Below the pieces are notes generated by a model. The model searched no databases. It was not told the DNA's origin and saw only the letters and a list, made by a program, of their open reading frames with translations. From Cyanophora paradoxa CCMP329 (Eukaryota; Plantae; Glaucophyta): 64,000 nucleotides of DNA. Of this stretch, positions 1 to 47,433 are shown in pieces (position 1 is the stretch's first letter; each line of letters begins with the position of its first letter). Position numbers and translations under genes: made by a program. The DNA lies in the NCBI GenBank assembly GCA_004431415.1, contig QPMI01000649.1:1-64000 (forward strand), in the 5' to 3' direction.

Positions 1-192
1 GTAGCTTGAAGGAAATGCGATTTCCAACATTTATTCTCAAAAGTATTGCTGGGATTCACAACAACTAGAACTGGCTTAGACTTGGATTCGAGACCAAGCA
101 TAAGGGAGTTATCCAGGAAAAAGGCTTTCGCCTCCTCTGGGTTGTTAGGGCTTCTTCAGCGAAAGTCTTTGAAGAGTGGAAGTGATATCCAT
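1..192 (-). CDS. 5' fragment of a hypothetical viral gene running off the window (frameshifted)
   Basis: ATG at 192 after an A-rich leader. MDITSTLQRLSLKK continues as NNPEEAKAFFLDNSLMLGLESKSKPVLVVVNPS after a 1-nt shift. Confidence 0.3.
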
Positions 193-244
193 TATATTCT
201 CTTTTATTATACTGCAACATAAAAAATCTACCAATGATCCTTAA

Positions 245-1249
245 TTTATGCGAAGTTTGTAATAACTGGATAGGAAGGGTGAAGCTGTGACATTCGCATC
301 TTAAAGTATTCATAAACTGGGTCCCAGCTGGCTCATCACCATAGCGAATTTCAAAGGTAAGATGAACAGGTTGACCCTCAAAATCAATTGGTTCATTAAC
401 AGCATTACAATATCAACCGAGAAAGTGGATAATCCAACCTTTTTTTATAGTATTTGTAAAGTGGATGAGCCTCTGTTGAATTGTAAACAACATGCTCACC
501 ATAATCTTTGTCAGGACCACTATTTTATGAAGTAACCAGTCAGAAGACCATCCCCACATTGCACCAGATCACCCAGCTCCTTTACTCTCACAAACAAAAC
601 ACTGTCCCTGGTCTTCTCAGGCTCAAAAGAAGATATAATGCCATTCACTCGACATCAGTAAAGATTCCATCAGTGAGAGCATCATAAACTTGGGATTTGA
701 TTGGGAATTCCCATATCTTCCAGGATCAAGACCAAGCAGTCTAGCTGAACTCAATAGCTTTTGGATTGTTTGTTGGCTTGGGTTTACAGCAAGTGAGAAA
801 GCCAGGTAAAAAGGCACTGCCGAGTGGAATATAATTCGTTTCAGTGACTCATCCCATTTGCAGCGAATGGATGGTTGGGGAGTTCTGCCAATGAATTTTG
901 AGTTGATTACATTCACCAGCTGTTGGTGGCTTTGGATGGGGGTCTCGCGATTTACCATGAATTGTTTCCATTGTTCAAAATCAGCAGCTGGGCGAGTTGT
1001 TGGAATTCCTGAGCTTCCAGCTCCTGGAGTTTGTTCCGAATAATAAATACTAAATGTGTTATCAACTGTGACATCTCCTGCTTTGGTTTCACCACTCACC
1101 ATAGGGATGCTGTTATAAAATTCGGCTGAGACCAGTCTCACAGCCCTCACATTCTCATAACTACTGGGGAGTCTAGCCACAAAGCTTGATGTGGGACCAT
1201 CACCAGAGATTGTATTAAATGAGCTAACCTCGATGTAATCCACAGGCAT
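245..1249 (-). CDS. Minor capsid (penton-like) protein 1, frameshifted
   Basis: N-terminal SSFVARLPSSYENVRAVRLVSAEFYNSIP, then in shifted frames VLFVRVKELG and C-terminal NEPIDFEGQPVHLTFEIRY. These match motifs typical of PLV/NCLDV minor capsid proteins. The 3' end is approximate. Confidence 0.6.
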
Positions 1250-1277
1250 TCTTCTTTATCTATATTTATATATTAAA

Positions 1278-2204
1278 ATGAACCGGCTCGTTAATATTGA
1301 TAGCAGGGATAGAAGCCAAGGACAAAATGAAAACTCTTACAGGGTCACCCTCACAACTCCAGTAGAGAGACCAAGGAATGCAGGGTTCTATATGCAGAGA
1401 TTCCAAACAGCATCTATAACAGTGTGGGAACTGATCATCTAACAGTTCAGTTTAATTACCAAGATGGTTCATATAACCAAGTGATCACACAACAAGTGTA
1501 TCCCCTTCCCAGTGGCTACATCAATCAGGGTCATTTTGGGTAACACACCCTTATAATTATGGGCTGAACTATTCAAGCTTCCAAACCATTGCAGGCAAAA
1601 CAGTAGCTTTTGAGTTCAAGATATTCTATAACCCAACTACCTATAAAGTGGAGTTTTACAGCAACCATGAGTTTCGTTTTATTGCAAGCAACCAGAGAAT
1701 AGGAAGCTTTTGGGTGTGAGTTCTACTGAATACACCAATGGGTATTATAGCACTCCTCCTGTTGGTGGATCACCCTATCGACCTGAGAACCTGTTAAAGT
1801 ATGATGGCAAACCTATTACACCTGATCACCCAGCATGGGAACCACCTTTTCAGGACCCAGACTCTCATCTAAGCCCTTGCAATATTATTTGACAGCAGAA
1901 AGATGTCTGATATGAATGCTGAGCAGTATCTATACATGCACATTAAAGAGCTTGCCCCTTTTGCCAGCAGACACAATATAATTCCGAAATCGCAACCACA
2001 TAACCAGGGGCAATCCTTAGATTGCAATTGAGTAAGGATATAGGTGGCTATGTTTACCATAGTGGTGAACATGCAGAATTCATTCAGATAAATGACAGAA
2101 ACCTGGTGATAAGGGAACTCACAGTTGAGTTTAAAGATTACTTTGGTGAACTGATTGATATGAATGGAATCGATAATTCTTTTCAGTTGGAGTTTATCGA
2201 ATAA
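1278..2204 (+). CDS. Minor capsid (penton-like) protein 2, multiple frameshifts
   Basis: MNRLVNIDSRDRSQGQNENSYRVTL, then VLYAEIPNSIYN in a shifted frame, YLYMHIKEL, and C-terminal LTVEFKDYFGELIDMNGIDNSFQLEF. The IDSRDR, AEIPNS and IDxNGxxxSFxLE motifs are present. Confidence 0.65.
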
Positions 2205-3745
2205 AGGCACCTGTAAAGTCAACTCTCATTGTGGGAGCATTCACATACACAAGGGGATAAATGCGAATATATTTAATTCTGAGAGAAAAACCTATGTAAA
2301 AAGCATCCTTGATGCTGAGAGGAAATCCACTCAATAGAGCCACATCACCTGAGTTGTGAGCATTGTTAATGTTCTCACAGACATATATTTTGTTTTGCCA
2401 TCTGATCGAATAAAAGACCAGTTGATCCATCAGTGGATGTTGCCACATTGAAAGTCTTAATAAAAGCATTGGTGTCCCTGAACCATAGGCAATAACAGAG
2501 GAGAGTTCGAAAGTATATGGGAAAGCAACTTGAAGGTATTCAGTGGGGTTTCCCATATCTGCTCAGGAGCATAGGCTCCAGCTTCCCAGCCAAATGCTGA
2601 AGGTCTAGCCATGAAAGGCTCTTTACCTGTCACAGAGGATGAGGCAGTGAAGGCATCATCTGCAAGCTGATACAATTTGCATCCAAAGGAGGTGATGTAG
2701 TGAGAGTGGATGAGATGTAAGCCTTTGTAGGGTTCTTTAATTCATAGTTTGCTACTAGAATGCTGCAAAGCTTATTAATCATATCATTGTTTGCTGCTAT
2801 GTATGTTTCAGTGAATGCTAGCATATCTGGGATCTTAGAAGTGTCATCAAGGGAGCTTACTATGTGATTTGGAAGTGGGACTGATAGCCTATAGTATCTA
2901 CCATAATCTTGATCATAGTTGTAGGGTAACAACTCCTCCATCTTATCAAGGGCAGAAAGCTCACTTGCAGCCATGAGCATGTTAATCAATGGGCTTCCAT
3001 CTGTTGAGGCAATCCATGAGAGAATTCCCCAGCTGTTCACAGTCTCATAAGCATAACCCACATAATCAGACTCTAAATGTGGGTCCACCTCACCACAAGA
3101 GATACTTATTACTATTATATCATCATCATCACTGTAAATCTTCTTTGCATGGCTGTAACCACACACACTGGGATTATTGTTTCCCGAAATGGCACCATCA
3201 ATGAGACAGACAAATACTCCCCGATTGAAATCAACAATGCTTACAGGAGAGAAATATGTAGGAGCAGCAGAAGTAGCCCTAGCAGCAATCTTACAAGGCA
3301 TAAAGTTGTAGTTGTTGTCATTTGTGATAAATATTGGTTTCATATTCTGAGTATCAAAGGATGTAATCACAATGTCCTTTAGGGAATCCTGTATTAGTGA
3401 TTCACCAGTAACTGAATTAATTGCAGTCTCCAAGGGTCCCACATCATATTTTGTATTAAAAAGGGCATTTTCGATGATATTTCGAGGATTTGCGAAAATC
3501 AAGGGCAGTTGAGTTAGGTAAATATTGTGTAAATCGTTTGCTGTCAGTTTAGGTTCACCTGGTTTATCAGGATGCCTGATATTCAAACCTATTGCAATGA
3601 TCCCACCAGTGGAAGTTCCACTTACAAGATCCACAAGATCGATTACTCTTCTGCCAGTTCGATTTTCGATTTCTTTTAGCAGCCTGGTTATGATAATGCC
3701 CCTTGCACCCCCGCCAGAAAGACTTAAAACGACCTTGAGAGGCAT
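2194..3745 (-). CDS. Patatin-like phospholipase fused to a C-terminal discoidin (F5/8 type C) domain, frameshifted
   Basis: Patatin motifs LSLSGGGARG, GTSTG, ATSAAPTYF and IDGA. The 3' ORF pieces AFTASSS, EYLQVAF and KYIRIYPLVYVNAPTMRVDF follow the discoidin pattern. Confidence 0.8.
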
Positions 3746-3788: not shown

Positions 3789-6700
3789 ATGAGCTTCAAT
3801 TACCCACCAAATCTAGAAACCATTCAAGATGATAATGCAAGCAGCACCAAGCATGTGAACTTTGATAATATTAAAGTAAAGGGTTCAGTTTCAATTGACC
3901 ACAGCTCTGATAATTCATCAAAGACTCAATCAAGGGAGCATGCTTTATCTGTGAATCAAACCGATCCAGATAAGGAGGAAGTCAGTGTAGCTTTTAGCTT
4001 GGGTAATGTGAAAGCAAACCAAGTGGCAGAGATCAAAGCAACAAGAAGGAGACCTAGGAAACTAAAAACCAGTGGCACTCATCCAGATATACCTTCCAGG
4101 TTTGATAGTGGTCGTTTGGTTTTCAATGTTCAAGATGAGCAGGGCAAACAGAACACAGCTTTGCGAATTTACAATGAGGGCAGTACTGCAAAAGCTGAGG
4201 TCCCCCAAGTATTGCAAGTGGGTCCCATTGCCAACACAAATCAGGTCTCCTACACAAATGATGTATACCCCAAGGATATTACATATGACTTTGCGAGGAA
4301 TGAGCCTTTTGGGTTTTTTACTCCAAAAGATGTCCATCAAAAAAAGCCATCAATTACAATCAACAGTAGCCCCAGTCAACCAGTAGCAATCCATTTACAC
4401 CCTGATTTAGTCGAAATGGATAGGCACCTTTTGCCTTTGTATAGCAATGTGAAAGACCTTGGAATTCGAACCAGGCAATGGCGAAATATCCATGGCAGCA
4501 ATGTGTATGCAAATGGGAGAAACTTGTGAGTGAGAAAACTCTAAGGGAAATAATCGAGCATTATGGTCCCAATGGACCAACAGTCCCATTCCCTATTCCA
4601 TTTCCAAATGGACCTCCCGATTTAACACCAAAGAAACAGCCTGGAAGAGAATACACAGCAACTGAAGATGTAGCCTTTGGGCAGCATATTGTTAGTTGGG
4701 AGCAAGTTCGCAATAAACCTATAATTGAACCCAGAAAGCAAATAGATGAGCAGTATTTACCTCCTGAAGTCGATATATTAGAGCTTGATGAATATCAATT
4801 CGTTCCAGATGAGGAAGAATATTTACCAGATGGTTTTGACCCACAAGAATATGAATATGATCAGTTTGACCCCAATGAGGAGGAGATACTACCAGATGGC
4901 TTAGATCCTCAAGAGTTTGAGTATGAGCAGAACTATGAACCTGATGAGGAGTATTTACCAGATGGTCATGATCCACCAGCTGTTGACTATGAGCAACCTT
5001 ATGAACCCCATGAGGAATTATTACCAGATGGATTTCGACCTGAGATCTGGGAGTTCTTTCCTGATTATGAACAAATTAATAATAAACCTGCAAAGTATCC
5101 CCCAGAGGATCACAATCATGATTGGGATGAGATCTTAGGCAAACCTCAAAAGTATCCACCAGAGGATCACAGGCATGATTGGGGAGAAATTGATGGGATA
5201 CCTACTGAGTTCCCACCAAGCAAACATGAACATACTTGGGATGAGATCAATGACCAACCAGAATTCGCAAAGGTAGAGCCTCTTGATAACTTGGGGGTTT
5301 CTCTTTATCAGACTTGTAATGTCCCAGAAAGGATCTTTTTGAATGAACACTATGTTCATGTGAATGGGACACTTGCTAATTCAGCTATGAGAGGACCACT
5401 TCATATTAGGACATTACCAGGCTCTTATAATCCACCACCTGAACCAGGAGCAACCATACCAAATATCTTTGTGTCAAGCTACATGGAGGCTGACATTCCC
5501 ACAGATACATTCAGAGTCCCAACAGACCCAGCAACCTACCAAAATTACAACTCTGCTATACAGGTTCATGTAGCAGATGTAAGCAGTTTAGATGGCTCAA
5601 GACCAATGATAGTATTCAGCAGAGATAAATATTCCTACATTCCCATAGTGGGAACTGCAAATGATAATTATGGGAGAGCAGAGCTTGCATGGATTAAAAC
5701 CAACTATGGTGGGGTTCTGGAATCCAATCAGAGGATGGCTGCAAAAAACATACACAACGAAAATATTTCGAGAGTGGTCACAGAGGATTATTTAGAAGAT
5801 CAAGGATATATTGATGAAGGTGAACTCACAAATATTCTTTCTCTTTTTGTGATCAAAAATGACACAAACCTTACAGTCACAAGTAACATTTACACCAGTA
5901 ACCTTTATACAAGTAACATTTTCACAAGTAACCTGTGGGCAAGTAATATTTATGGAAGTAATCTAGAAGTCGACTATTTGACTGTGAATATTGAAGCGAA
6001 TCTACCAAATCATCCTACATCCAATGTAGTTTTAGGTTGGATCGATACCCACACCCACACAAAAGATGAAATAACAGATTTTGCACATGAGCATTTATGG
6101 GAGCATATAACAGATCCACCATTAACCTTCCCACCCAGTCCCCATGAGCATTTATGGGAACATATCACGAATCCACCATTAACCTTTCCACCTGATCCAC
6201 ACAGTCATGATTATTCCCAGATCACCAACTGCAATCACAGACACCCTTGGAGTGAAATCGATCAACAACCAGTGTTTGCACAGTTGAATGCAATCGGAAA
6301 TGTTTTTAATGGAGTCACACTTTACCAATCGAGTAATACACCTGAAAGATTGTATTTGAATAATCATTATGTTAGTCTCAATGGGACTTTTACAGGTCAA
6401 ACAGGCACTCCAATGGAGGGAACTCTTGCAGTAAGATTACCCAGGGATCCAATCGTAAATGGAGTGTATAGTGGCGATTTCAATGTAGGAGTAAACGATA
6501 CTTTCCCCAGTATCTATGTTACGAATTATCACCCAGGAGAAATAGGACAAGTAGCGGATTTTTCAGCAGCTATTCAAATTAACGTAACAGATCAAAGCGC
6601 ATATGATGGAGCAAGACCTAAAATAGTATTCACAAGGGAGAAAGTTGTAAACTACCTTCCTGTAGCAGGACAACCCACAGATGATCATGGGAAATGTGAG

Positions 6701-9349
6701 ATTGCATGGATAAAAACGACATCAGGTGGAGCCTTAGAAGTCAATCAGAGGATGGCAGCAAAAAACTTACACAATACAACCCTTTCAGGTGTGGTCACAG
6801 ATGATTACCTAACCAATAAAGGGTATCTTACAACAGCAGATTTAAGCAGCTATGTAACAGAAAGTGAATTGGGAACGACTCTAAATAATTATACAACAGA
6901 TGCAGAGTTAACAGCAGCTCTAGGAAATTATTTACCTCTTACAGGTGGGACAGTTAATGGAACTGTAAACGCTACTAGTCTACAAATTGGTGGAAACACA
7001 ATTCCAAAAGGATATGATTTCGATCAATTAGATGTAGTATCAACAGATAGAAGCGCAAATAATTGGAATTTGAATTGGTCACCAAGAACAGGACAAACAG
7101 GATGTTATACAACACCACAAAATGATGAAGATTGTAGCGGTTGTTTTATGAGGTGGACTGTCCCCACAGGTATGAAATCATTTTATATTCAGCATATGCC
7201 TTGGTATAATGGCAGATATTTTGATATCTATGGTCAGACTCTCAATAACAATCAGCATTTCTTAAAACGTGTAAACGATTATCAAGGAATACAGTCAGTA
7301 AATCATGATGGGACAAATAATACTATCTTGTTTGTATCAATTAATTGCGAGTTTTACAAGTATATTTATGTTCAAGGTCGAAAAGGTCGCATTCATCTCA
7401 CAGGAGTTTTTGGTTGGAGTAGGCAGAGGGCAACAGATAATGATGTTGGTATGATCTCTTGGGATAATGTATTTAGTAAACCTGATTTTGCAGGCACTTA
7501 TGCAACAAAGGCAGAAGTCCCTAACGTTTTAGGTGATCTATTGACAGTGAACTCTGTGGACTGGCACAAATCAACAGATAATATTCCAAGGTTTTGGTTT
7601 GGTAGTGGTAATACAACATATATTCGAGGGTATGGGAATGGTGAAGGTGTTTCGATTGAATTTAGAAATTCAGGAGATACAGCCATTTTGAAGTCTTATG
7701 ACAATGGTAACCTTTGGGTAAATAATACCATAACAGCATCTACAATAAATGCTACTACAAATCTCCAAATAAATGGGAATGCTGTTCCAAAGCTACACTC
7801 CAACGATGGATATGTTGCAGGGAGTTCTCCACACAATTATTCTGGAAGTTGGACATTTGGGTATGGCTCAGCTTGGGAACCCTATTTTAATTATGGTGGG
7901 CATGCATACAATAATGAAGTGGATGACCAAACCTCTTCCGCTTGGATTGAATACAATATACCCGATGGATTACACACAGGGTCAGCATTTCTGACTCATT
8001 TACCATGGGGCAACACACGAATTTTCGAGATTTGGGGAATTAATCGACAAGGCAATGCGATTTTCATAACAACTGTCAACAATTATCACCCTTATGCAGG
8101 GTCTGCAAATGATAACCATAGTGGTGTGAATAATGTCCCCATCTTCCTAGGAAACCGATTTGTAAGGATTCGAATTCAAGCAAGAATTGGAAGGGTTCAC
8201 ATTATGGGTATTAGTTTCATGAAAATATGGGTTGGGCATAGCTATGGTGGTCACACTGGTTATATTCATTGGAATAATGTGTACAGTAAGCCAAATATAC
8301 CTACATCCTATCTATCATTAACAGATGTCACCAATTCGATTGGAAACATTACAGGTTTTGATACTTGGAGTGGACATGGTAGTTACAGTCTTTATTATGT
8401 TGGATCTTGGACAGGAGGTTGGGTTCCTTCTAACAGTAATCCCATTGATGGATTTTATAGCAACAATGTAGATGATCAAACAAGTTCAGATTATGCACAA
8501 ATTGAAGTCCCAGCCAATATGAAAACATGTCATGTTCAGTATATGTGTTGGACGAATTGTAGATATTTCGATATTGGAGGTTATCGAAATGGGAGGTGGC
8601 ACCACATTATGCGAGTTAATACATATCAAGCAGTTTCAAATAATGGAGATTCAGATTGGCATGATGGGTTAACATGGACTTCTTTCTTTTGTGATACATT
8701 TTCACATATTAGATTTGTTGCAAGGAAAGGGAGATGTCACATTGGAATGATTGGATGGACAAAAGAAAAAGGAAGAACAGCCCCAGCAAATGGTTTTATA
8801 AGTTGGGATAATGTATATAGTAAAGATGCTCGCACAACTTGGGCAACCGGAACTTGGATAACATCAGATGAAGGTAATGGGAGAGTTTTTTTCGGTTCAT
8901 CATCAACTACATACATTAAAGGTTATGGTTACGAAATGATCCATTTTAGAGCAGGAAATGATATAACAATGCAAGCTTTTTATAATAATGGTGACGTTTA
9001 CTTTTGGGGATGGCTTACACAAGGAAGTGATAGAAGATACAAAACCGACATTAAAAATATAACCGGCGCCCTTTCAGCAATTGAGAAATTACAGGGTGTG
9101 AGTTACAAAAAGATTGGTGATGGAAAACAGAAAGTAAACTTAGGTTTGATTGCGCAAGATGTCGAAAAAGTCATACCAGAAGTAGTAGGTAAAAATCACG
9201 AAAATTATTTGACCCTTGCATACACAGGTTTAATTCCGGTTCTCATTGAAGCAGTGAAGGAGTTATCCCAAAAATGCAAAGATTTAACACAAACCTGTGA
9301 GAATCTCCAAAGTCAAATAGACCAAATTAAAAATATCACAGTATTATAA
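3789..9349 (+). CDS. Large virion fibre/spike protein with C-terminal peptidase S74 intramolecular chaperone; probably one gene split by a 1-nt shift near 4517
   Basis: C-terminal SDRRYKTDIKNI...GLIAQDVEKVIPEVV...YTGLIPVLIEAVKEL. HxH-W-xx-I tail-fibre repeats, acidic EEEYLPDGxDP repeats and duplicated internal domains. Adding one G in the GGG run joins ORF 3789-4529 to ORF 4478-9349 (NGEKLVSEK). Confidence 0.8.
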
Positions 9350-9694: not shown

Positions 9695-10540
9695 ATGGGT
9701 GAATATAATCGAGTTCAACTTCCAATATATTCCCTTGGATCCCCTGCAATGCATTTTCGCCAGCATGAAGTAAATGATGAGGTTCGTGGTTTAGAATCCA
9801 CAGAGAGACCCAATTCCAATGGTAACTCCTTTGATAAAAATTCGATTATTCGAGTAAAAGAGCTGAGAGCTGATAAGAATTCAGGTGTGGTTAAAACAAC
9901 TCGACTTCTTGTCACAAATGCTAACTTTTTCCAGCCTACAAATGGAGGTCCTGATGCTTACAGTGTTGATCTGAAAGCCCTAGATTTCGATAAGAATACT
10001 GCTGCTGTTACTGTGAGATCAGGAGGAGCATTTATTGGGGGTGGCTGCAGAGTTTCAGGTCAACTCTCATCCTCAATTTCGTATAATGATGTCCCAGATA
10101 CTCTAGAGCAAAATGTGGAAGACCCCCAACGAATTCGATTATATACTCCTGTCGCACAGCAGCCATTAATTCAATTTTACATTGGATATACTGTTACTCT
10201 TGAAAACTCGGAATTAATTGAAGGAACCAAAAGAGTACTGAGAGGTCTTGCGATTCCATCTGCAATGCTTTCCCTTTGTAGAGCCAACAACAATCAAGTA
10301 GGTCATAAATACTATTTCAATGTTCAGGGATATAATCATTTCGGTTATGGCTACTGTGTTTATAATAATAATTTCACCTTTGACTTGTTTGTTACAGATA
10401 TTGGGTTATATACTATAACTCTTATCGGTTTGAGAACAGATATAGCCGCTGTATCAGCTCTTAGAGGTGTAACTCCTGATACTCTTTCAGTTACAGGGTT
10501 TTACATGGAGCCAGATGTAATTGATGAGCCAACCCCATAA
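9695..10540 (+). CDS. Hypothetical viral protein, paralogue A (probably structural)
   Basis: Intact 281-aa ORF sharing GLxSTE...ELRxDKNxGxVKTTxLLVTNANF...SGGAxIGxGxRVxG with the next ORF. Confidence 0.75.
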   Translation: MGEYNRVQLPIYSLGSPAMHFRQHEVNDEVRGLESTERPNSNGNSFDKNSIIRVKELRADKNSGVVKTTRLLVTNANFFQPTNGGPDAYSVDLKALDFDKNTAAVTVRSGGAFIGGGCRVSGQLSSSISYNDVPDTLEQNVEDPQRIRLYTPVAQQPLIQFYIGYTVTLENSELIEGTKRVLRGLAIPSAMLSLCRANNNQVGHKYYFNVQGYNHFGYGYCVYNNNFTFDLFVTDIGLYTITLIGLRTDIAAVSALRGVTPDTLSVTGFYMEPDVIDEPTP

Positions 10541-10563
10541 AAGATATATCCCTTTAATGTAAA

Positions 10564-11397
10564 ATGGCTGAGCAACCCCCACTTGAACGAATTATTACAC
10601 CACAGCTATCATTAGCTGCCCCAGCAAACCATGTTTTACAGCATGCTACCTTTGATGATGTAGAGGGTCTCCAATCCACAGAGGTCCAACCTACAATGAA
10701 TACATTTGGTTCCACCCATAAACTGAGATTACAGGAACTCAGATGTGATAAAAATAATGGAATAGTTAAGACAACTAAGCTACTTGTCACAAATGCAAAC
10801 TTTTCTGCTCATTATGGAGACCCAGATAGCTATGGAGATCCTCTGTCTACTTATTCTTTTGAATCTAGGTCGGGAGCTATTAACTGCAAATCGGGGGGAG
10901 CTTATATTGGTGATGGTCTTAGGGTTGGTGGGGCTGTTGGAGCGCCTTTATTTGTGAATGATCAACCCAATCCCATTGATCCCAACACAAGAATTCGAAC
11001 CTATGTCCCCAGCATGAATGCCCCATACATTATAAAGATATTCCCCATTGTTGTAAATCAACAAACAGCAGTAGTTGACTCTCTTGTTGAGATTGGTGAT
11101 CACTACAAGGTGGTTGTTGATATCCCACCAGATGTTTATGCTGTATGCCAAGTTGAAGGTGGAACTCCCAACTTTGCAGTTGTGATCACCCCATATGATA
11201 ATTTCGGAATTGCTTATCATGGAGTCAATTTCGGTTTGGAAGACTATCAGTTTCTGGTGAGAGCCACCAAGTTTGGTATCTACAAGTGTGTGATGTTTGC
11301 AGAGAGAACCGATTTTATTGCAAAGCAGAATACCTATGCTGAGTACTATGGCACTAATCGATATTTCCCCATTTTTGGGCAGGATACTGCTCCATAA
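10564..11397 (+). CDS. Hypothetical viral protein, paralogue B
   Basis: Intact 277-aa ORF whose N-terminal half is clearly homologous to 9695-10540. Confidence 0.75.
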   Translation: MAEQPPLERIITPQLSLAAPANHVLQHATFDDVEGLQSTEVQPTMNTFGSTHKLRLQELRCDKNNGIVKTTKLLVTNANFSAHYGDPDSYGDPLSTYSFESRSGAINCKSGGAYIGDGLRVGGAVGAPLFVNDQPNPIDPNTRIRTYVPSMNAPYIIKIFPIVVNQQTAVVDSLVEIGDHYKVVVDIPPDVYAVCQVEGGTPNFAVVITPYDNFGIAYHGVNFGLEDYQFLVRATKFGIYKCVMFAERTDFIAKQNTYAEYYGTNRYFPIFGQDTAP

Positions 11398-11419: not shown

Positions 11420-11692
11420 ATGGATAGTAAAACAAAAAAGTTTATTGATGCTGCTATGACAGTTCATGGTAAAGATAAATTCGATTACAGTGAGACACAT
11501 TACATCAAAGCTCAAGAGAAAGTATCTGTTAGATGTTTGCAGTGTAATAAGGTGATCCTTACCTATCCCTTTAATCATGTGAAGGGATCAGGTTGCAGGG
11601 AATGCAACAAAAAGCATTCTCAGGCTTATAGGAAAAGGGCTTCTGCATCAATCACAGTAGAGTACAGGGATATTTGCATTAGGTTCGATTAG
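11420..11692 (+). CDS. DUF723-like zinc-ribbon protein (endonuclease-associated DNA-binding module)
   Basis: FIDAAMTVHGKDKFDYS...Y...KVSVRCxxC...PxNHVKGSGCxxC pattern, common in phage and giant-virus proteins. Confidence 0.7.
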   Translation: MDSKTKKFIDAAMTVHGKDKFDYSETHYIKAQEKVSVRCLQCNKVILTYPFNHVKGSGCRECNKKHSQAYRKRASASITVEYRDICIRFD

Positions 11693-11721: not shown

Positions 11722-12120
11722 ATGGAGACTAAATACAGAGGCTTTCATGTTATGCTTGATTACAAAGCTAAATCAGCTATTGCAACAGGACATGAGCATG
11801 TTAGCTTCCTAGGTAATTGGATTATGGGAACCCTTGAACAAGCTATATTGAGACAAGGTATTAGGATTGTTCATAAACACTGTGAAATATTTGATGGCAA
11901 AGTATCACCTCCTGGTTTTGCATTGGTTCTGCTATTAGATGAAAGCCATTGTACAGCTCATTGTTATTCCAATGAAGGCATGTTAGCAATTGATATATTC
12001 AGTTGTGGTAAAGAAGCTCAGCATAAAACACAAGCAGTTGCAGATGAGATCGATAAAACAATGAATTTCCTCACATTTGAGAAGACTGAGAGACATAAAC
12101 ATGATAGATTCCCGTTTTGA
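11722..12120 (+). CDS. speD: Pyruvoyl-dependent S-adenosylmethionine decarboxylase family proenzyme (bacterial short form)
   Basis: GxHxxxD N-terminus, PPGF...LLLDESHCTAHCY (ESH self-cleavage site) and AIDIFSCG in a 132-aa protein. Confidence 0.85.
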   Translation: METKYRGFHVMLDYKAKSAIATGHEHVSFLGNWIMGTLEQAILRQGIRIVHKHCEIFDGKVSPPGFALVLLLDESHCTAHCYSNEGMLAIDIFSCGKEAQHKTQAVADEIDKTMNFLTFEKTERHKHDRFPF

Positions 12121-12354: not shown

Positions 12355-12800
12355 TATTAAAGTGGACTCAAGGTTGACTCATATTAATCGTAAAAGTAGT
12401 AAAAGTATATGGATTTTGTTACGAATTCAATGCAAGGGTTGACTAAGTGGGTTGAGTTGACTCAAATTTCACAGGAAATATTTGGGACCAAAAGTTTTCT
12501 AAAAAGGATTTCAAAAAATGTGTCAACTCCCCCCACTTAGTCAACCCTGACCATAAACAGTAAGGATTTGAGCTAACATGTATCACAAAGTGAACATATT
12601 GAGTCCACTTAGAAGATCCACTTTTGAAATCCAAGTTGATTTTGCTTGAAATTTCAAAGTTGATCTAAAAGTGAGTCCACCCTGATTGATTATGGTAACA
12701 AAGTTGACTAAGTTGACTAAGTTGAGTCATATTAAGAAATTCAAGGAGACTAAGAGTTCAAAATGTTTATGAAAAGTGAGTCAACTTAGACCACTTATGA
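12355..12800. repeat. Array of GT(T/G)GACT(C/A)A motifs in both orientations
   Basis: About a dozen copies, e.g. agtggactcaaggttgactca, gttgactaagttgactaagttgagtca and gtgagtcaacttag. Confidence 0.75.
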
Positions 12801-12848
12801 TAACAAAGTTAAATATTTATTTGATTTAATCGGAAAAGAACATGATTT

Positions 12849-13072
12849 AATCGAATTTATTGATATAATTCCGATTAGATTCATTTAGGATTCAATTAAG
12901 ATCAATCGAAGTTATTGATATAATTCCGATTAACTACAATTAAGATACAATATCGATTAATCGAGTTTATCGAGATAACATCGATTAAATTAATTGAAAA
13001 TGCATGTAAAAATATGAAAATTCATGTGAAAATTCAAATAAATTAATCGATTTTATTGATATAACATCGAAT
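12849..13072. repeat. Four 28-bp dyad-symmetric subterminal repeats
   Basis: AATCGAnnTTA-TyGAkA-TAAnnnCGAwT starting at 12849, 12904, 12959 and 13045. Confidence 0.85.
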
Positions 13073-13147
13073 CACACATATGAATATTCATATTTTAATC
13101 CTGAGGCGGAACGCCGAGGGATTAAAATATGAATATTCATATGTGTG
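13073..13147. repeat. Terminal hairpin: perfect 29-bp inverted repeat around a 17-nt partly paired apex
   Basis: CACACATATGAATATTCATATTTTAATCC (13073-13101) and GGATTAAAATATGAATATTCATATGTGTG (13119-13147). Confidence 0.95.
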
Positions 13148-14552
13148 GCCGCGAGCTCAGCCTCGAGCGCCTCCTCTCCTCTGGCTCCGCCTCCTTCATC
13201 ATCGACAAGGTAAAATTCTAGAATATCTAATTAATATTCATCCAGAGACTCGAGATCGCGTCTCACGCCGCGAGTGCGCAGGTGTGGGATGCCACGCGGC
13301 GGCTGAGCCCGGTTGCTAGGCTGGCCGAGGACGGGCCCCACTCCCCCGAGCTGCGGGCGGCCTCGCCGCCGGCTGCGGCGCCGGCGCCGGCCAGGCTCTC
13401 GGCGTTCGCCTTCCTGCGCACCGTGGCGAGGGCGAAGCGGAGCGCCAGCCCCGGGCCGGCGCTCAACGCGGCGCCCAAGGCCGGCGAGGCGGCGGGCGAG
13501 GCCGAGGCGGCGGGCGCCTGGATCGACTTCCCCGCGTACGAGGCCTTCCACCACGCCCTCCACCGCTCCATCTCCAGCCCCGCCTTCCCCTGGAACCTCC
13601 AGGTAATTGCATAATTAACTAAAGAGCATGCCAAATTTATGCGACCCAGGCCTCGGCTTAATTTTGTGCCGGCAGGAGGCGGGGCGGCTGGCGCAGGCGA
13701 ACTGGGGCGTCGACTCGCGCGGCTCGGAGCGGATGTCGCGGCAGGCCTTCGACACCGCCATGCACAACATCGCCAAGGTGCCCCCGGCTTCTGTGCTATA
13801 AATAAACGTGGAGCGCGGCTAACGCGGCCCGGGTGCGGTGCGGCAGGCGTGGGCGGCGGACGTGGAGCGGCGGGACGTGGCAGTGGGGGTGCTCCTGCTG
13901 GCCGCCGACGCGGGGCTCCCCGCCTCCGCCCCCGCGCCCCTCGAGATCCTCTTCCTCGCCAGCTTCGCCGCGGTGCGACAGCGAGCGACCGGTTTTCATT
14001 TCATTTGGCGATGGACGCTCGATCGCTGACGCTGCGCCGACGCAGACGGTCGTGGCGGCGGGCGAGGCGGACTCGATCGCGATCGCTAAGCCGAAGGCGG
14101 GGCCCGAGCTGCAGCTCGGCCCGGCGCTCGCGCAGCTCAGCGGCCTGCGACGGCCCTCCGCATCCCCCTCCTCCTCCCCGTCCCCCTCGCCCCGCGGCCG
14201 GCCGGGGGCGCTGCTGCGGCCCTGGTTCGAGGTCGGGCTCGGGTGCTGCCAGCCGCGCGGCGTCATGAAGCTCCTCGAGGCGCACATCGCCAGCCGCCGC
14301 CCCCCCGGGGCCGCCGCCGGCCCCAAGGCGACCCGCCCCGCCCCCGTCCACTCGTGCCCGGAGCTTACCTCCGGCGCCCGCTCGGCCAGCGCGCCGGCCG
14401 GGGCCAGCTGCAGCCCGAAGGCGGAGGGCAGGGAGGCGGCGCTGGGGCTGTGCGGGACGGCGGCGCTGATGCGGCGCGCCCTCCACAACCGAATGGCCAC
14501 CCTCCTCGAGCAGCGCCGCTGCTCCTCCGGCTCCTCCCCGCTCGACTACTAG
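13147..14552 (+). pseudogene. Host gene of unknown function, 5'-truncated or interrupted by the viral element
   Basis: Near-identical exons to 16955-18320, but it starts mid-exon (GGCCGCGAGCTCAGCCTCGAG) directly after the hairpin. Confidence 0.85.
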
Positions 14553-16531
14553 TATTTCGACTAGTTCGAAGTTCGCACCCCAGCGAACTGTAATTGCTCA
14601 AGCTTGATTCAGTGTTCGCGCGCGCAGCAACAGTTACAGACACAGACCTAGAATTATCGTAGGTAGATTAATTATAAGAGCACGATGTTCAACAGTGCTA
14701 GCTAGTTTCAGGCATGTCCCATGCTGATACAGGACGCAGGGTCAGCCGGTTTCCAATTTGTTTCTCAGGACTGGATGTAGTCATGAGCAGTGCAATCGCT
14801 TTTTCCTCGTTTTCTCTCGACATGTCCATCGTACATAGGTTTCAGATCATTGTCACTGTAATATTGAACTTCGGAAAGCACCAATAAGGGGGAGCTCGAG
14901 TAAAATCGTAACTAGAAGGTAAGCCAAGCTAAAGCTTTGAGCTCGAGCTTATTTATATATAATCTTCTAAATTCGAACCGGCGTCGACGTCGGCGAACGC
15001 GAATGCGATATCGAAAACTTCCTCGGCCTCGAGATTCAATGATTCCAGCCGCGCCCCGCGGGCTGCAAGTGGCGCGGCGCCAGCGGAGTCCACTCACGCT
15101 CACGATCAGGTATATATATTTATACGTATACGTATATATCGATCGCGATCGGGTCGCTCGCATGCAGTGCATATGAGCCTCGCCGAGTCGAGCTCGCGTC
15201 GCAAGCTACTAGGCTACTAGTACCGTAGTACGCGATTGCAATATTTTAATTGCTGGTTGCAAAATTGAACACGGAGTTCGACGGTCACTGGCACTCGCCG
15301 AGTCGGCGCCGGCCGGCGCCGGCTAATTTTAAATGATCCTACTAGTACATATGACTCTGATATGAGCCTATTGCCGGCGCCATGGCCAATTGCAACTTGC
15401 CGCAGTGCGGCAAGTTCAACGGTTGAAGAGCTGTTAACTTAGTAATGTTATATATACGCAGCCTAACGTTAACGTATCATAGTACTAGTAGTATAACGTA
15501 GGTGCCGGCGTCGTGCCGCCGCTGCCGCGGTGCCACCGTTGCCACGGCGGCAAAGCTTCGAATTCAACCGTGCACCATGGCACGCGTACGTGCTTGCAAA
15601 TTGCAATTGTCGATAATGTCAACTTGGCCAAGTTGGCAACTTTAATTTGTCAAGTTATCAAGTTGGGTTGGCAATGTCAACTCATTGTCGATGGCCTTCG
15701 CGGTTCGTCACTGGTCAGCACAGGCCGAAAAACTTTGAAGCTTGCACCGGAGTGGTCGGCGCCTGTCACTGGGGGCGGCGGCCGCGGGGCCGCAACAGTC
15801 AACAAACTTACTCCGAACTCGGGAACTTGAACCGGTTTTTCGGCAATCAAATTTCAACTTGGCAAGTTATATAATTAACCGGCGAAACGTTTGTTCTGTT
15901 AGGCCGACTCTCGGCGAACGTTAACCGTTTTGAACGCTCAGCGGCCGGGCTTACGTACCGTATATAACGGTATATTATCGATACTATGATATCGTAGTCA
16001 GATTCGTAGAGCCTGCAGCCTGGAGATCGGGGTCTATGACCGTCTATCACCGTCTAGGCAGAGTCATTGCAGACTATGCCGCAGTGCGCTAGCGGCCGCC
16101 GGGCTAGCCTAGCCTAGTAGTACTACGGTATACGTAGCGCCTTGCAATTGTGCGGTGTTGTGCCTCCGTAGTAGAGTCCGTACGCGTGCGGTCTCTCGAG
16201 CCGGCGCCTCCATCTACTATAGTATAGCTGTAGCTCAGCGCTAGCTAGCAGGTCCGACGTCGACGGTCGGCGATCATCGGATCGCAATCCCGTCGACATC
16301 CGCCTCGATGGCCAGCACGGCGTCGAAGTCGACCAGCAGGCGCGTCGAGCTGCCCCGTATCGACACGGCCTTTGCGAGGGTCGCATCCACGTCGGCGTCG
16401 CCGTTCCCGGTGCGCTCGGCGCGGCGCCCGCGGCCGCTCACGTCGCACTGCCCGCCGCTCACAGCTCACCGGACCGCGCGTGCGCGTCTGTACATGTGCA
16501 GATGCCCCGCCCCCCGAGCTCGAGCGCGGCG

Positions 16532-18343
16532 ATGCAGATGAGCATAACGCGGCCGCCCTCTCCCCTCGAATCGGACGGCGCCGATGTCCTCTCCGGCGAC
16601 AGCGAGAGCGATGAGATGGATGACGCGTGCTCCGTCCTGAGCGACGACCGGACGGCCCCGCGCAGGCGGCGGTTGCGGACCCTGGCCCCCGACCGCGGGC
16701 CGCGCCTCAGCGCCCGCAGCGACCCGACCAGCTCCTCCCCCGCCTTCGCCTTCCCCCGGCGGCCGACGGCGACCGCCGACGAGCTCTCCTCCTGCAGGGG
16801 CGCCGAGGCCGCGCTGGCGCACTCCCTCTCCCGGCCCCGCTCCTGCCCCGACGTCAGCCTCGCCGGCCCCGAGGCCGCTCCCGCCCGCCCGCCAGTCGCG
16901 AGCTGCAGCGCCGACGTCGACTGTGCCCAGCCGCCCACCGCCGAGCCGGACGCCGGCCGCGAGCTCAGCCTCGAGCGCCTCCTCTCCTCTGGCTCCGCCT
17001 CCTTCATCATCGACAAGGTAAAATTATTCAATAAATTAAAAATCAATCCAAGCTTCACTCGAGATCGGCGTCTCACGCCGCGAGTGCGCAGGTGTGGGAT
17101 GCCACGCGGCGGCTGAGCTCGGGCGCCAGGCTGGCCGAGGACGGGCCCCACTTCCCCGAGCTGCGGGCGGCCTCGCCGCCGGCTGCGGCGCCGGCCAGGC
17201 TCTCGGCGTTCGCCTTCCTGCGCACCGTGGCGAGGGCGAAGCGGAGCGCCAGCCCCGGGCCGGCGCTCGACGCGGCGTCGAAGGCCGGCGAGGCGGCGGG
17301 CGAGGCCGAGGCGGCGGGCGCCTGGATCGACTTCCCCGCGTACGAGGCCTTCCACCACGCCCTCCACCGCTCCATCTCCAGCCCCGCCTTCCCCTGGAAC
17401 CTCCAGGTGATTAATATCACACAAATCACGGCCGATTTCCCCATCCAGAGCCCAGGCCTGACCTGTGCCGGCAGGAGGCGGGCCGGCTGGCGCAGGCGAA
17501 CTGGGGCATCGACTCGCGCGGCTCGGAGCGGATGTCGCGGCAGGCCTTCGACACCGCCATGCACAACATCGCCAAGGTGCCCCCGGCTTGTGTAGGAAAC
17601 GCTGCGCGTAGATAATTATATAACGTGGCCCGGGTGCGGTGCGGCAGGCGTGGGCGGCGGACGTGGAGCGGCGGGACGTGGCGGTGGGGATGCGCCTGCT
17701 GGCCGCCGACGCGGGGCTCCCCGCCTCCGCCCCCGCGCCCCTCGAGATCCTCTTCCTCGCCAGCTTCGCCGCGGTGCGACAGCGAGCGACCGGTTTTCAT
17801 TTCATTTGGCGATGGACGCTCGATCGCTGACGCTGCGCCGACGCAGACGGTCGTGGCGGCGGGCGAGGCGGACTCGATCGCGATCGCTAAGCCGAAGGCG
17901 GGGCCCGAGCTGCAGCTCGGCCCGGCGCTCGCGCAGCTCAGCGGCCTGCGACGGCCCTCCGCATCCCCCTCCTCCTCCCCGTCCCCCTCGCCCCGCGGCC
18001 GGCCGGGGGCGCTGCTGCGGCCCTGGTTCGAGGTCGGGCTCGGGTGCTGCCAGCCGCGCGGCGTCATGAAGCTCCTCGAGGCGCACATCGCCAGCCGCCG
18101 CCCCCCGGGGCCGCCGCCGGCCCCAAGGCGACCCGCCCCGCCCCCGTCCACTCGTGCCCGGAGCTTACCTCCGGCGCCCGCTCGGCCAGCGCGCCGGCCG
18201 GGGCCAGCTGCAGCCCGAAGGCGGAGGGCAGGGAGGCGGCGCTGGGGCTGTGCGGGACGGCGGCGCTGATGCGGCGCGCCCTCCACAACCGAATGGCCAC
18301 CCTCCTCGAGCAGCGCCGCTTCTCCTCCGCACTGGAGTACTAG
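16532..18343 (+). CDS. Host hypothetical protein, multi-exon, full-length paralogue of 13147-14552
   Basis: GT-AG introns join SFIIDK/VWDATR...FPWNLQ/EAGRLAQANWGIDSRG...NIAK/AWAAD. The start could be 16502. There is one probable C-run indel near 18105. Confidence 0.7.
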
Positions 18344-38692: not shown

Positions 38693-41864
<3,172 letters not shown>

Positions 41865-42635: not shown

Positions 42636-45600
42636 ATGGCGTTCTCAGCAGGCTTCTCGGCGAGTGAGCTGCTCGGGGCGCGCGTACGTGCGCCAGCGAC
42701 GTTCCATGCATCTTCGAGCTGCAGCTGGCAGCCCGCCACGGCACTGGCCGAGCATACTGCGACTCGAGGCAAACAGGGCGGCAAGCGCCGAGCGGGCGGC
42801 TCGAAGGTGAGCTAGCGCGCATCGATCGTCGTCATCGCTTCGGCTCACTCCAACTCGCAGGCGGCGAAGAAGGCCGCGATCGAAGCAAAGGTCAAGCCGC
42901 AGCTCAGCGAGGATGGGAAGTACGAGCGTTGGCGCGTCTTTGATGTGAAGCTCCCCTTGGATGCTGACGAAGCCACGGAGCTCCAGCGCCAGGTTCGCGT
43001 CCGCCCGATTCTTTCGATCAGCGGGGTCTTTCGCATCCCGCCTCCGGTCCTCTGCAGTGCAGCATCTTAAGATCGATCGAACCGTTAGCTACGATGCACA
43101 GACAACCTGTAGAAGCGCTTTTCGAACCGCCGCGCCCCCCTAGAGGAAGCGCTTGCCCCGCCTCGCGCGCCGGCGCCCGCACTGGCTTGGCAGAATCCCT
43201 CTCTGACCCGCCGCGCCCCTCTCGGCGCACCCGCAGGTCGTTGCCCGGGTTTCCCCGTGCGCGCTCTCGCCCGGCTCCATCAAGGACATGCGGAACATGA
43301 AGATCGTCCGCCGCGCATTCGACGCTCGGAAAGAGGAGTGCAAGTGGACATACGTAGGCAAGCGAGCCGCCAGCCGCGGGCCGCTCCGACCGCCCACCAT
43401 GGCCCGCACGCCGCTAAACGCGGCGTCTCCGTGCGCAGTCGACGTCGACATGCCCGCGGCTGCGCGGCTGCGGGAGCGGCAGAACCGCACTGCGCCCGCG
43501 CCGCCGCCCAACGTGCAGCCCTCTTCGCGCGTCGGCGAGGGGCACACGGGGGAGCGCGTGGTGGTGGTCGGGGCCGGCCCCGCCGGCCTGGTGCGCCCCG
43601 CCGTACCCCGTTTCGCACCTCTGGCGGCGCCGACGGGGTGCGCAGTTCGCGGCGCTTCGGCTGGCGCGGGCGGGCCTTAAGGTGACGCTGCTGGACCGCG
43701 GCAAGCCCGTCGAAAGGCGCGGCGCCGACATCGGATCGCTCTTCCACCGCGCCAAGGTCCTTCATGGCACACGTACCCCCCTCGCCGCCTCGTTGACGCA
43801 CCCGACGCAGCTCAACGCGGAGTCGAACCTCTGCTACGGCGGTGCACGCTGTACCCCCCTGCGCCTCGCCCTTCCTTCCTCACCCGTATCCCCTCTCAGA
43901 GGGCGGGGCCGGCACCTGGTCCGACGGGAAGCTCACGACGCGCGTGCACGCGGGCGAGGTCCGTTGCCGTACCCCTCCTACGCTGCGCCGTCCCCCCTCC
44001 GATCTTTCCCGTACCCCACGCAGGTGCGGACGGTCCTGGAGACGCTGGTGGAGTTCGGGGCCCCCGAGCACATCCTCACGGAGGGCAAGCCCCACCTGGG
44101 TACGCCTTTACGCCTCTCTGCGCCCCCTCGCCCCCCGCGGGCCGGTCTAACCGTCCGCCCGCCCGCTTCCCCGCTCGCCCCGGCGCGCCGCGCCGCAGGG
44201 ACGGACCGGCTGGTGAAGATCCTGAAGGGCTTCCGGGCGGCCCTGCTCGAGCTCGGCGTCGACGTTCGGTGCGCCCGCGCCCCACCCCGTCACGCACCCG
44301 GCGGCCCGCTGCCCCGCGGAGACGACTTAGGAAAGGCTACGAGGCTTCAATCTGGTCCAAGCCGCTCTAAAGAGCCCTCCACCCTCGCAGGTTCGACTCG
44401 CGGATGGAGGACCTGGAGGTGGGCCCCGACGGGGCCGTCCGCGGCGTCGCCGTCTCCCGCACCGGGCCCGACGGGTGCGCCCCCCCCCCCCCCCCCGCCC
44501 CCTCCCCCCCCCTCCTCTCCTCTCTGACCTCGCTCGATCCGGAAGGGAGTCGTACCCTGTGGAGCACCTCCCGGCCGACCGCGTCGTCCTCGCGGTGCGC
44601 TGAACTTGGAGAGAGGGAGGGAGGGCGTGAGCTCTTGAAGCCGGCCGCCCTCTGTTCCTCGCTCTGAGGCGGTGCCTGCCGGCCCCCTCGGCGCAGGTGG
44701 GCCACTCGGCGCGGGACGTGTACGAGCGCCTCCGCGAGCGCGGCGTCGCCATCGCCCCCAAGGCCTTCGGTCCGCCCCCGCCCCGCCCCGCCCGCCCCGC
44801 CCCCCCCCCCCCCCCCCCCCCCCCCTCTCTTTCCCCGCGCCCTCCTATCCCCACCCTTCCCGCCGCCTTCGCTTCGACCTCGTGCGGACCCGCCATTCGT
44901 CTCAACCCCATGCGCCCTGCCCTGCCCCCCCCCCCCCCCCCCCCCCCCCCCAGCCCCCGCCGCCCCCGCCCTTCCATCCCTTCTCCCCCCCCCCTTCCCC
45001 ACGCCCCCCCCTCCCCTCCCCCCCCTTTCCCCTCACATTCCGACGCCCGGGCGCCCCGTCGCAGCGGTGGGCTTCCGGATCGAGCACCCGCAGGAGCTCA
45101 TCAACCGCATTCAGTACGGCGCCCAGGCCGCCCACCCCGCCGTCCCCGTCGGCGCGCCTTTCTTCCCCGCCATCCCGGCCCCCGCCCCCCTTTAAGACTC
45201 GCGCCTCGACCCGCAGCGGACTACCGGCTGGCGACGCAGGTGGAGGACGGACGGGGCGAGGAGCGCGCCGTCTACTCCTTCTGCATGTGCCCCGGCGGCC
45301 AGGTACGTCCGACCCCTCGATCCATGCATCCATCTCTCTGCAGCTGCAGCTGTCGCCTCACGCGGCGCGGGGCGGGGCGCGCCGGGCAGATCGTGGTGAC
45401 GAGCACGACGGAGGAGGAGCTCTGCCTCAACGGAATGTCCTTCTCCCGCCGCGACTCCCGCTGGGCAAACTCCGCCCTCGTCCGCCCGCCCCGCCACGCC
45501 CCGCCCCGCCCCGCCCCACCCCGCCCCGCCCCGCCCCGCCCCGCCCCGGATCGGTTCTTGATCCGCGGCCGGCCGCAGGTGGTCTCGGTGGCGCCGGGGG

Positions 45601-46770: not shown

Positions 46771-47433
46771 CGTCCGGCAGCCGTAAACGAAGCCCCGCGC
46801 GCGATATCGATCGATGCCGTGCGGTCCGTGATCATGATGCGATATACATCACGATGACTCAGTCCTTGAGGGCGTTGACGCCGATGGAACGCCGCTCGCG
46901 TAAGCATGCGCACGTGCGCGTGCGCGGCGCAGTCGACTTCGCAATTGGATCCGATGATCCGATGATCGCGATATCGATATCGACCGATATCGAGTCGGCG
47001 ATCTGATCATGCATATGAGAGGCGCCGGCTTAAGCTTTGAGAGCTCGAAAGAGTTCTAGTCGCCGAGTCGACGTCGAGGCGGGCCGGGCCGCGGCCGATT
47101 ATCGGAATTCGAAGATAATCGGCGACGTCGACGGCTGGCGTATGCCAGCTGCAGTATGTTACGGTATACGTATATATGTACAAGTACACGCGCGCGTACG
47201 CGTACGTGCGCGTTGTTGTTGCTGTGAAGCGCTTGAAGCCAGAACTTGAAGAGCCGGTGGCGGCCGCGGATTCAATCGCTGTGCCAATGGGGGGTACTGG
47301 AGAGCCGGGCGGAGGGGGGGGAGAAGGTCGGTGCCGACTCACGCCCTGAGCTGTCGCTTAGCTGCCTCTGCTCCAGTGCCGGGAGCGCGTGCTCCGGGAA
47401 TCCGGGATCCTCGCGGGCATAAAGCAGCAGCAC

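What the first reader, a model, noticed from the sequence alone, without database searches (positions are those of the whole stretch)
13073..13147. The virus-host junction is a 75-bp hairpin, possibly an opened telomere or resolvase site
Seen: a perfect 29-bp inverted repeat ending exactly where host sequence begins, with at most 1 nt (G13147) shared. Each arm contains the 16-bp palindrome ATATGAATATTCATAT, and the apex TGAGGCGGAACGCCGAG holds a GGCG-GAA-CGCC mini-stem with mismatches. Known: pox-, asfar- and chloroviruses have incompletely paired, covalently closed hairpin ends, and protelomerase and HUH sites are palindromic. Inference: a hairpin-ended linear genome nicked about 37 nt from its tip and joined to the chromosome would leave this signature. 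That implies an integration route different from the RVE-integrase/TSD route of Polintons.
Basis: partly seen in the sequence, partly recalled or inferred. Interest (0 to 1): 0.85.

Follow-up and report, generated by a model that had tools for sequence, protein, structure and literature searches.

The report
Hairpin tip of integrated protist virus
A 73-base hairpin forms the exact tip of many copies of a virus-like element inserted in what is likely a protist genome; it likely helps copy or protect the virus's ends, while insertion likely follows the ordinary integrase route with a 6-base duplication, a kind of end already described in a 2026 preprint.

Summary
The hairpin is real and no assembly artefact, but it is 73 bp (13074-13146, 28-bp arms): G13147 is host DNA. 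Contigs from 4 of 4 public runs carry it unchanged, at about 65-100 times host depth, joined to at least 7 other flanks. It is the conserved tip of a multicopy, Polinton-like-virus (PLV)-type element that here split the first exon of a duplicated host gene. Contig break points on the intact paralog bracket exactly six bases (GGCCGC). Terminal palindromes next to such duplications in PLVs and virophages were described in a July 2026 preprint. New here is the asymmetric 17-nt apex, which allows a flip/flop test: the ends overwhelmingly share one orientation, with one candidate inverted end in 1 of 4 runs. This argues against pox-like or AAV-like end resolution and for a fold-back of the 3'-ending strand with fixed polarity. 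No integrase, polymerase or major capsid gene lies in the window.

The parts
13074..13146 (+). Terminal hairpin of the element, 73 bp; the + strand ends TGTGT-3' and folds back so that its last base pairs with 13074
13074..13101 (+). Inner arm, 28 bp, holding the 16-bp dyad at 13078-13093
13102..13118 (+). Asymmetric apex: T.G pair, 2x2 GA/GA bubble, 4-bp stem, GAA loop on the + strand; one orientation in the bulk of ends
13119..13146 (+). Outer arm, 28 bp, with the second dyad at 13127-13142; last base of the element is 13146
13147..13152 (+). Likely 6-bp target-site duplication GGCCGC (host; equals 16955-16960 of the paralog)
   Evidence: contig break points, arithmetic; far junction not seen directly
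12848..13071 (.). Four copies of a 28-bp motif (starts 12848, 12903, 12958, 13044; 55-bp period) and two degenerate copies of the 16-bp dyad (13012, 13024); candidate protein-binding sites beside the hairpin, likely inside the terminal repeat
   Evidence: role inferred
12435..12548 (.). Second, imperfect inverted repeat (35-nt arms, 17 perfect) among GTTGACT-type repeats in the non-coding end region
13147..14529 (+). 3' part of the interrupted host gene; the cut falls in its first coding exon
   Evidence: 93.8% identical to 16955-18329; paralog exon read
16502..18329 (+). Intact paralog of the host gene, used as a stand-in for the empty site
11722..12120 (+). S-adenosylmethionine decarboxylase gene of the element
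   Evidence: Pfam PF02675, E 3.7e-11
11420..11692 (+). Short ORF like part of an HNH-type endonuclease
   Evidence: PHROGs 681, 4605, 559, E about 1e-8 to 1e-9
9695..11397 (+). Two paralogous ORFs (281 and 277 aa, 34% identical) of unknown family
4478..9349 (+). Fibre-like protein with C-terminal S74 chaperone
   Evidence: Pfam PF13884, E 3e-16; PHROGs tail fibres
2194..3745 (-). Patatin-like phospholipase followed, across a frame break, by a discoidin-like piece
   Evidence: PF01734, E 1e-20; discoidin likeness is recalled from motifs, with no Pfam or PDB hit
68..2201 (.). Two divergent, frame-broken genes with minor-capsid-like motifs
   Evidence: frames; the label is recalled; no family hit and a poor model, pLDDT 43.6

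Best explanation
The 73-bp hairpin is the conserved tip of a multicopy virus-like element, likely a Polinton-like virus, that was likely inserted by a retroviral-type (RVE) integrase with a 6-bp target duplication, and the hairpin likely serves to copy or protect the ends of the free genome rather than to provide another way in. Shown: the tip ends at 13146, is the same in the bulk of copies, joins many flanks, and has one apex orientation. Inferred: the strand ending TGTGT-3' folds back when single-stranded and puts its 3' end on 13074, where it would prime synthesis into the genome or cap a 3' overhang. The iterated motifs beside it would load the replication protein. The integrase would join the 3'-OH of T13146 to host DNA in a 6-base staggered cut. 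Because the apex keeps one orientation, the end is likely not regenerated by symmetric cruciform resolution or by copying through the hairpin from a nick in the parental strand, since both invert the apex.
For: Multicopy, conserved tip: contigs 13052-13100, 13072-13107, 13078-13116, 13087-13140 and 13111-13146 all have depth 4800-4980 and 0 other letters in X1, against 72 for single-copy host DNA; apex/host 69, 73, 102, 66 in X1, X2, X4, X10 and apex/inner 1.03-1.09. Flanks join at 7 break positions besides the window's own (table 7). Duplication: in X1 and X2 the contig holding the left half of the host gene ends at 16960 and the next begins 24 unlaid letters before 13147; in X10 the break is at 13147/16984; in X2 that left half is a variant not in the window (3 letters and a 6-base gap) and still runs through GGCCGC. 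Of duplication lengths 0-10 only 6 puts the branch after 16960. RVE integrases typically give 6-bp duplications and tyrosine recombinases do not (PMC12220804, passages). The gene set (decarboxylase, lipase, S74, HNH) fits best the glaucophyte row of its Table S6: of 156 elements 66, 89, 37 and 40 carry these, 85 carry rve and 0 a tyrosine recombinase. Palindromes inside terminal repeats next to duplications are reported with RVE integrases and non-pPolB replication genes (bioRxiv 10.64898/2026.07.28.741278, section 7). One orientation: the X1 contig 13072-13107 and the X10 contig 13073-13118 run from inner sequence into the apex at 1.02 and 1.01 of inner depth. Internal/terminal depth ratios of 0.47-0.68 in X1, X2, X4 fit a repeat present at both ends.
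Against: The far junction was never seen as sequence; the duplication rests on contig ends and on a word length of 31 inferred from 30-letter overlaps. X1 and X2 show no contig for this site's right junction: either the assembler pruned it, or those cultures lack the insertion, which would undercut the 16960 argument. The junction contigs in X4 and X10 hold only 27 and 26 element letters, below the tool's 31-letter rule for a bridge, and one of these runs may be the window's own source. The tool warns that summed contig depth is no copy number. No integrase, polymerase, helicase, ATPase or major capsid gene lies in the window, and neither host nor virus class was identified by a call. 49 of 156 glaucophyte elements carry a protein-primed polymerase, which needs no hairpin primer. 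The two strands fold almost equally well (-30.6 and -29.5 kcal/mol), and a pyrimidine loop can be as stable as its GNA complement (PMC5449611, passage). One X4 contig may carry the inverted apex. By eye, no two of the visible flanks formed a duplication pair.
Confidence: 0.7

Rival explanations
1. Opened telomere, integrase version: the free genome has covalently closed hairpin ends of fixed polarity. The integrase would nick at the base of the stem (after T13146, 36 nt from the tip), transfer that 3'-OH to the host, and host repair would unfold and copy the hairpin.
For: It predicts what is seen: the junction at the exact base of the stem, one apex orientation and a duplication. Some parvovirus ends occur in one form only (PMC8242256, passage). 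The bubbled apex resembles incompletely paired viral telomeres (PMC7909422, passages).
Against: Closed ends replicated through dimer junctions give flip and flop (PMC7909422; PMC2944168), so it needs an extra asymmetric step. Searches list no joint in which the tip runs on into the inverted inner sequence; these are contigs, which drop rare forms, so this is weak.
Confidence: 0.15
2. The hairpin is a recognition structure for protein-primed replication or end patching, as in Streptomyces telomeres, or a binding platform for the integrase; it never primes by itself.
For: Fixed orientation follows directly. A GNA loop stands on the 3'-ending strand, as in Streptomyces overhangs (PMC5449611, passages). 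The terminal ACACA repeat resembles slide-back termini (recalled). 49 of 156 glaucophyte elements carry pPolB.
Against: In the preprint, palindromes go with non-pPolB elements. The 3' end pairs exactly with the first base of the stem, the geometry of a primer.
Confidence: 0.1
3. The site is an attachment or resolvase site (tyrosine recombinase, protelomerase, HUH), and the element integrates without an RVE integrase.
For: AT-rich inverted repeats flank phaeovirus attP sites (PMC13236599, passages). The 16-bp dyad repeats four times near the end.
Against: Both arms lie on one side of the junction, whereas recombination at an att or telRL core would split them. The flanks share no evident core. 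A 6-bp duplication is indicated. 0 of 156 glaucophyte elements encode a tyrosine recombinase. No such gene was found in the window's part of the element.
Confidence: 0.04
4. An assembly chimera or a one-off repair fold-back at this junction.
For: The window's viral genes carry frame breaks, so the assembly may be error-prone.
Against: The whole hairpin stands unchanged at full depth in 4 of 4 runs from 2012, 2019 and 2024.
Confidence: 0.01

Closest known systems
Terminal palindromes of endogenous virophages and PLVs of Halocafeteria seosinensis (bioRxiv 10.64898/2026.07.28.741278; section 7 and passages read, figures and supplements not seen)
   Same: Palindrome at the tip of the terminal repeat, next to a target-site duplication, in multicopy endogenous small DNA viruses; hairpin priming proposed.
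   Different: There a 52-nt palindrome found with at most 10 nt of gap, and the word flip does not occur in the text. Here 28-bp arms around an asymmetric, bubbled 17-nt apex whose orientation can be read and is fixed.
Polintons and RVE-encoding PLVs (PMC12220804, passages and Table S6 rows 1-21; PMC10120064, passages)
   Same: AT-rich insert in a GC-rich host, many copies, S74 fibre, lipase, decarboxylase, likely terminal repeats and a 6-bp duplication.
   Different: Neither hairpin nor palindrome occurs in the main text of PMC12220804; capsid, ATPase and integrase genes could not be seen here.
Closed hairpin ends of pox-, asfar-, chloro- and kaumoebaviruses (PMC7909422, passages)
   Same: AT-rich, incompletely paired tip next to repeated motifs.
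   Different: Those occur as flip and flop forms and are not joined to host DNA at the base of the stem.
Parvovirus terminal hairpins (PMC2944168, PMC8242256, passages)
   Same: A 3' end that folds back as a primer; some ends exist in one form only.
   Different: AAV ends show flip and flop and need an HUH Rep protein; none was found in the window's part of the element.
Streptomyces telomeres (PMC5449611, passages)
   Same: The 3'-ending strand folds into hairpins with GNA loops; fixed polarity.
   Different: Several short palindromes and protein-primed patching, in bacteria; no sequence relation tested or expected.
Phaeovirus attP and telRL sites (PMC13236599, passages)
   Same: Inverted repeats near the host junction of an integrated algal virus.
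   Different: Tyrosine recombinase, a CC core and no duplication; the telomere site is internal.

Membership tests
Polinton-like virus / Polinton | Double jelly-roll major capsid, minor capsid and packaging ATPase genes | tested here: inconclusive
   Only minor-capsid-like motifs (recalled); no family hit, poor model; the rest of the element lies before the window and no genome is held.
Polinton-like virus / Polinton | Terminal inverted repeats at both ends | tested here: inconclusive
   Internal/terminal depth 0.47-0.68 in 3 runs fits two ends; the far end was not seen.
Polinton-like virus / Polinton | Many dispersed copies with GC content unlike the host | tested here: met
   31-42% against about 50-78% GC; 7 other break positions with flanks and 65-100-fold depth.
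RVE-integrated elements | 5-6-bp target-site duplication | tested here: inconclusive
   Contig ends bracket exactly 6 bases, but the far junction was not read.
RVE-integrated elements | rve integrase gene | not testable with these tools
   Not in the window; 85 of 156 elements of the best-matching group carry it.
Halocafeteria-type palindromic ends | Palindrome at the very tip, adjacent to the host junction, in the copies of a family | tested here: met
Halocafeteria-type palindromic ends | Association with non-pPolB replication genes | not testable with these tools
   No replication gene lies in the window.
Pox/asfar/AAV-type hairpin ends | Flip and flop forms both common | tested here: not met
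   One orientation at 1.01-1.02 of inner depth in X1 and X10; one candidate inverted end in X4; the matching X2 piece was not listed. Integrated copies only.
Pox/asfar-type hairpin ends | Covalently closed ends in free DNA | not testable with these tools
   Only contigs were served, no raw or long reads.
Tyrosine-recombinase att or protelomerase site | Exchange at the centre of the dyad, shared core, no duplication | tested here: not met
   Junction at the base of the stem; both arms on the viral side; varied flanks.

The most novel reading that the evidence does not exclude
This virus family keeps hairpin-closed linear genomes of fixed polarity, and its retroviral-type integrase opens them itself: it nicks at the base of the stem, 36 nt from the tip, and joins that end to the chromosome, so that the telomere is written into the host as a palindrome with a 6-bp duplication. 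The apex bubble would set which strand is used, and occasional use of the inner arm would give inverted ends or free-standing 73-bp hairpin insertions such as the candidate in run X4.
Probability: 0.15. Interest if true: 0.8.

Novelty: new variant of a known kind. Interest (0 to 1): 0.42.

Why it matters
How most Polinton-like viruses copy their ends is unknown, and the hairpin-priming model of the 2026 preprint is untested. A perfect palindrome cannot show whether the tip is inverted during replication. This end has an asymmetric apex and stands in many copies, so its orientation is a direct readout. The fixed orientation already narrows the options: it speaks against pox-like and AAV-like resolution and for a polar fold-back. 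A host with public DNA runs from 2012 to 2024 makes snap-back, long-read and integrase tests feasible. The insertion also split one of two copies of a host gene inside an exon.

Tried and rejected
No whole genome is held, so the far end, the integrase and other full copies could not be read. The arm sequence has no exact match in viral contigs or metagenome contigs. Three single proteins found no related viral loci. The decarboxylase alignment gave 1 viral and 13 metagenome loci; none shares another gene with the element, and only 1 of 14 has a perfect inverted repeat of 14 bp or more. The 281-aa protein has no homologue at E 0.001; the 208-aa protein gave 2 spurious repeat proteins; 0 of 8 proteins are in the exact-sequence collection; a search of phage records with one minor-capsid-like fragment found nothing; the patatin search gave only generic relatives at 29-38% identity. 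The protein atlas gave no answer. The single-sequence model was too poor for a fold search. Rfam: the 5 matches on the hairpin are generic microRNA-precursor shapes far below their gathering scores. No RNA holder was listed. Four short words from other flanks and from the contig joined at 13111 do not occur in the window. I laid 4 of the 14 runs that hold half or more of the words; 227 pieces, and 2529 pieces and 728 loose ends, were not shown. Rejected: a 75-bp unit, a chimeric read, an att or protelomerase site. Literature searches for PLV hairpin ends found only the Halocafeteria preprint as a direct precedent; its supplements are closed and may hold imperfect palindromes like this one.

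Full report
Observation. The inverted repeat is as described: 29 paired bases at 13073-13101 and 13119-13147 around a 17-nt apex, with no outward extension. It is the longest perfect short-loop repeat in the window and far beyond chance. GC rises from about 20% to about 57% per 100 bases at the junction, and from 31-42% to mostly 60-78% per kb.

The two sides. Left of the junction lies a compact, AT-rich gene block: a patatin-like lipase, a 1623-aa fibre with an S74 chaperone, two unknown paralogs, an HNH-like fragment and an S-adenosylmethionine decarboxylase, plus two frame-broken genes whose motifs I recall from minor capsid proteins (not confirmed). No integrase, recombinase, polymerase or HUH protein was found in this part. 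Right of the junction, 13147-14529 is 93.8% identical to 16955-18329, an intact paralog whose first exon reads through the site. The element therefore sits inside an exon, and the paralog stands in for the empty site; the first 71 bases are identical.

Other copies. Twenty runs of one organism hold the stretch, 14 of them half or more of its words; I laid four (X1, X2, X4, X10), all contigs. In X1 five overlapping contigs cover 13052-13146 with no other letters at depth 4800-4980, against 72 for single-copy host DNA. The apex stands at 66-102 times host depth and 1.03-1.09 times inner depth in the four runs. Summed contig depth is no exact copy number, but flanks join at seven other break positions (table 7), so the family is dispersed and the hairpin is general. 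The terminal contig stops at 13146 in X1 and X4, and depth falls to about 0.3 at 13147 in those runs (X10 uninterpretable, X2 not estimated). The element ends in TGTGT at 13146, with 28-bp arms.

Target-site duplication. In X1 and X2 the contig with the left half of the host gene ends at 16960, and the next has 24 unlaid letters before 13147, a 30-letter overlap. In X10 the break lies at 13147, matching 16984. The two branch points enclose 16955-16960, GGCCGC. In X2 the left half is a variant absent from the window, likely the part beyond the element, and it still runs through these six bases. Of duplication lengths 0-10, only 6 gives a branch after 16960. This is indirect. The far junction was not read, X1 and X2 show no contig for the right junction, and the X4 and X10 junction contigs hold only 27 and 26 element letters. 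I put a 6-bp duplication at about 85%.

Orientation of the apex. Only words that span inner sequence, a whole arm and the apex can tell flip from flop. The X1 contig 13072-13107 and the X10 contig 13073-13118 do so, at 1.02 and 1.01 of inner depth, so the inverted form is at most rare among integrated ends. One exception: in X4 a long GC-rich contig joins directly before 13074, and the main contig breaks there. Listed junction contigs appear to need 30 matching letters (an X4 contig joined at 13073 is missing), so this one likely includes apex bases in the inverted sense, or it is a free-standing hairpin. It was not seen in the other three runs.

Both ends? Not shown. Internal-to-terminal depth ratios of 0.47-0.68 in X1, X2 and X4 fit a repeat present twice per element, and an X4 contig at 0.92 of terminal depth suggests that it reaches inward to at least 12831. 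That stretch holds four 28-bp motifs and two degenerate copies of the 16-bp dyad.

What is known. RVE integrases typically give 6-bp duplications and tyrosine recombinases do not (PMC12220804, passages). In its Table S6 (rows 1-21 read) the glaucophyte elements fit the window's gene set best: of 156, 66 have the decarboxylase, 89 a lipase, 37 S74, 40 HNH, 85 rve, 0 a tyrosine recombinase, 49 pPolB, 40 a D5-type domain. The three cryptophyte rows with the decarboxylase have 0, 0 and 1 lipases. The paper also reports patatin fused to discoidin in glaucophyte and rhizarian elements. No call identified the host. A July 2026 preprint reports palindromes inside terminal repeats, next to duplications, in four virophage subtypes and one PLV subtype, linked to non-pPolB genes and particular RVE integrases, and proposes hairpin priming. 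Three earlier notes of this scan describe perfect palindromic tips in other genomes (unchecked). Closed viral telomeres and AAV ends occur as flip and flop; some parvovirus ends occur in one form; Streptomyces 3' overhangs fold into GNA-loop hairpins. PMC8547959, PMC11161782 and bioRxiv 10.64898/2026.10.13.758929 (passages) added nothing on hairpin ends.

Mechanism. Shown: a conserved, polar 73-bp hairpin ends the element exactly at the host junction in many copies. Inferred: an RVE integrase joins T13146 to host DNA with a 6-base stagger; in the free form the 3'-ending strand folds back, placing its last base on 13074, and primes or caps the end. The purine-rich apex (GAA loop, GA/GA bubble; the stability of tandem G.A pairs is recalled) lies on that strand, though computed energies differ by only 1.1 kcal/mol. 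Fixed orientation speaks against symmetric resolution.

Verdict. A real and general feature, of a kind described in 2026, with a new and informative twist: a readable, fixed apex orientation. The claimed new integration route is not supported. Interest 0.42.

Noticed in passing
window 13111: In 4 of 4 runs one long contig joins foreign sequence exactly at the loop tip and runs outward; the depth step suggests about one copy. It may be another mobile element inserted in the loop, or a copy broken at the tip.
   Followed up: partly
window 13074: One X4 contig joins GC-rich DNA directly to the inner arm: a candidate inverted apex or a free-standing 73-bp hairpin insertion.
   Followed up: partly
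window 12435-12548: A second strong inverted repeat (z about -7); contigs in the laid runs carry its right arm (12513-12546) with other sequence on either side, so a related family likely shares the motif (table 7).
   Followed up: partly
window 68-2630: The two minor-capsid-like genes and the patatin/discoidin-like gene carry several frame breaks, while the 4.9-kb fibre gene is intact; decay and assembly error were not told apart.
   Followed up: no
window 11722-12120; L002, L003, L004: The closest decarboxylase relatives found (49-52% identity) lie in contigs whose neighbours look like those of algal giant viruses (labels recalled from reading the ORFs), a hint of gene exchange with a giant virus.
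   Followed up: partly
window 42889-52957 and 53933-64000: A host block of at least 10 kb is tandemly duplicated at 99.1% identity.
   Followed up: no
window 40374-41181: A tandem array with a unit of about 324 bases next to a tRNA-guanine transglycosylase-like gene.
   Followed up: no
L001 1-14605: An unrelated small-virus contig with a decarboxylase, a recombinase-like and a primase-helicase-like ORF (labels recalled, not tested) and two internal inverted repeats of 36-40 nt.
   Followed up: no
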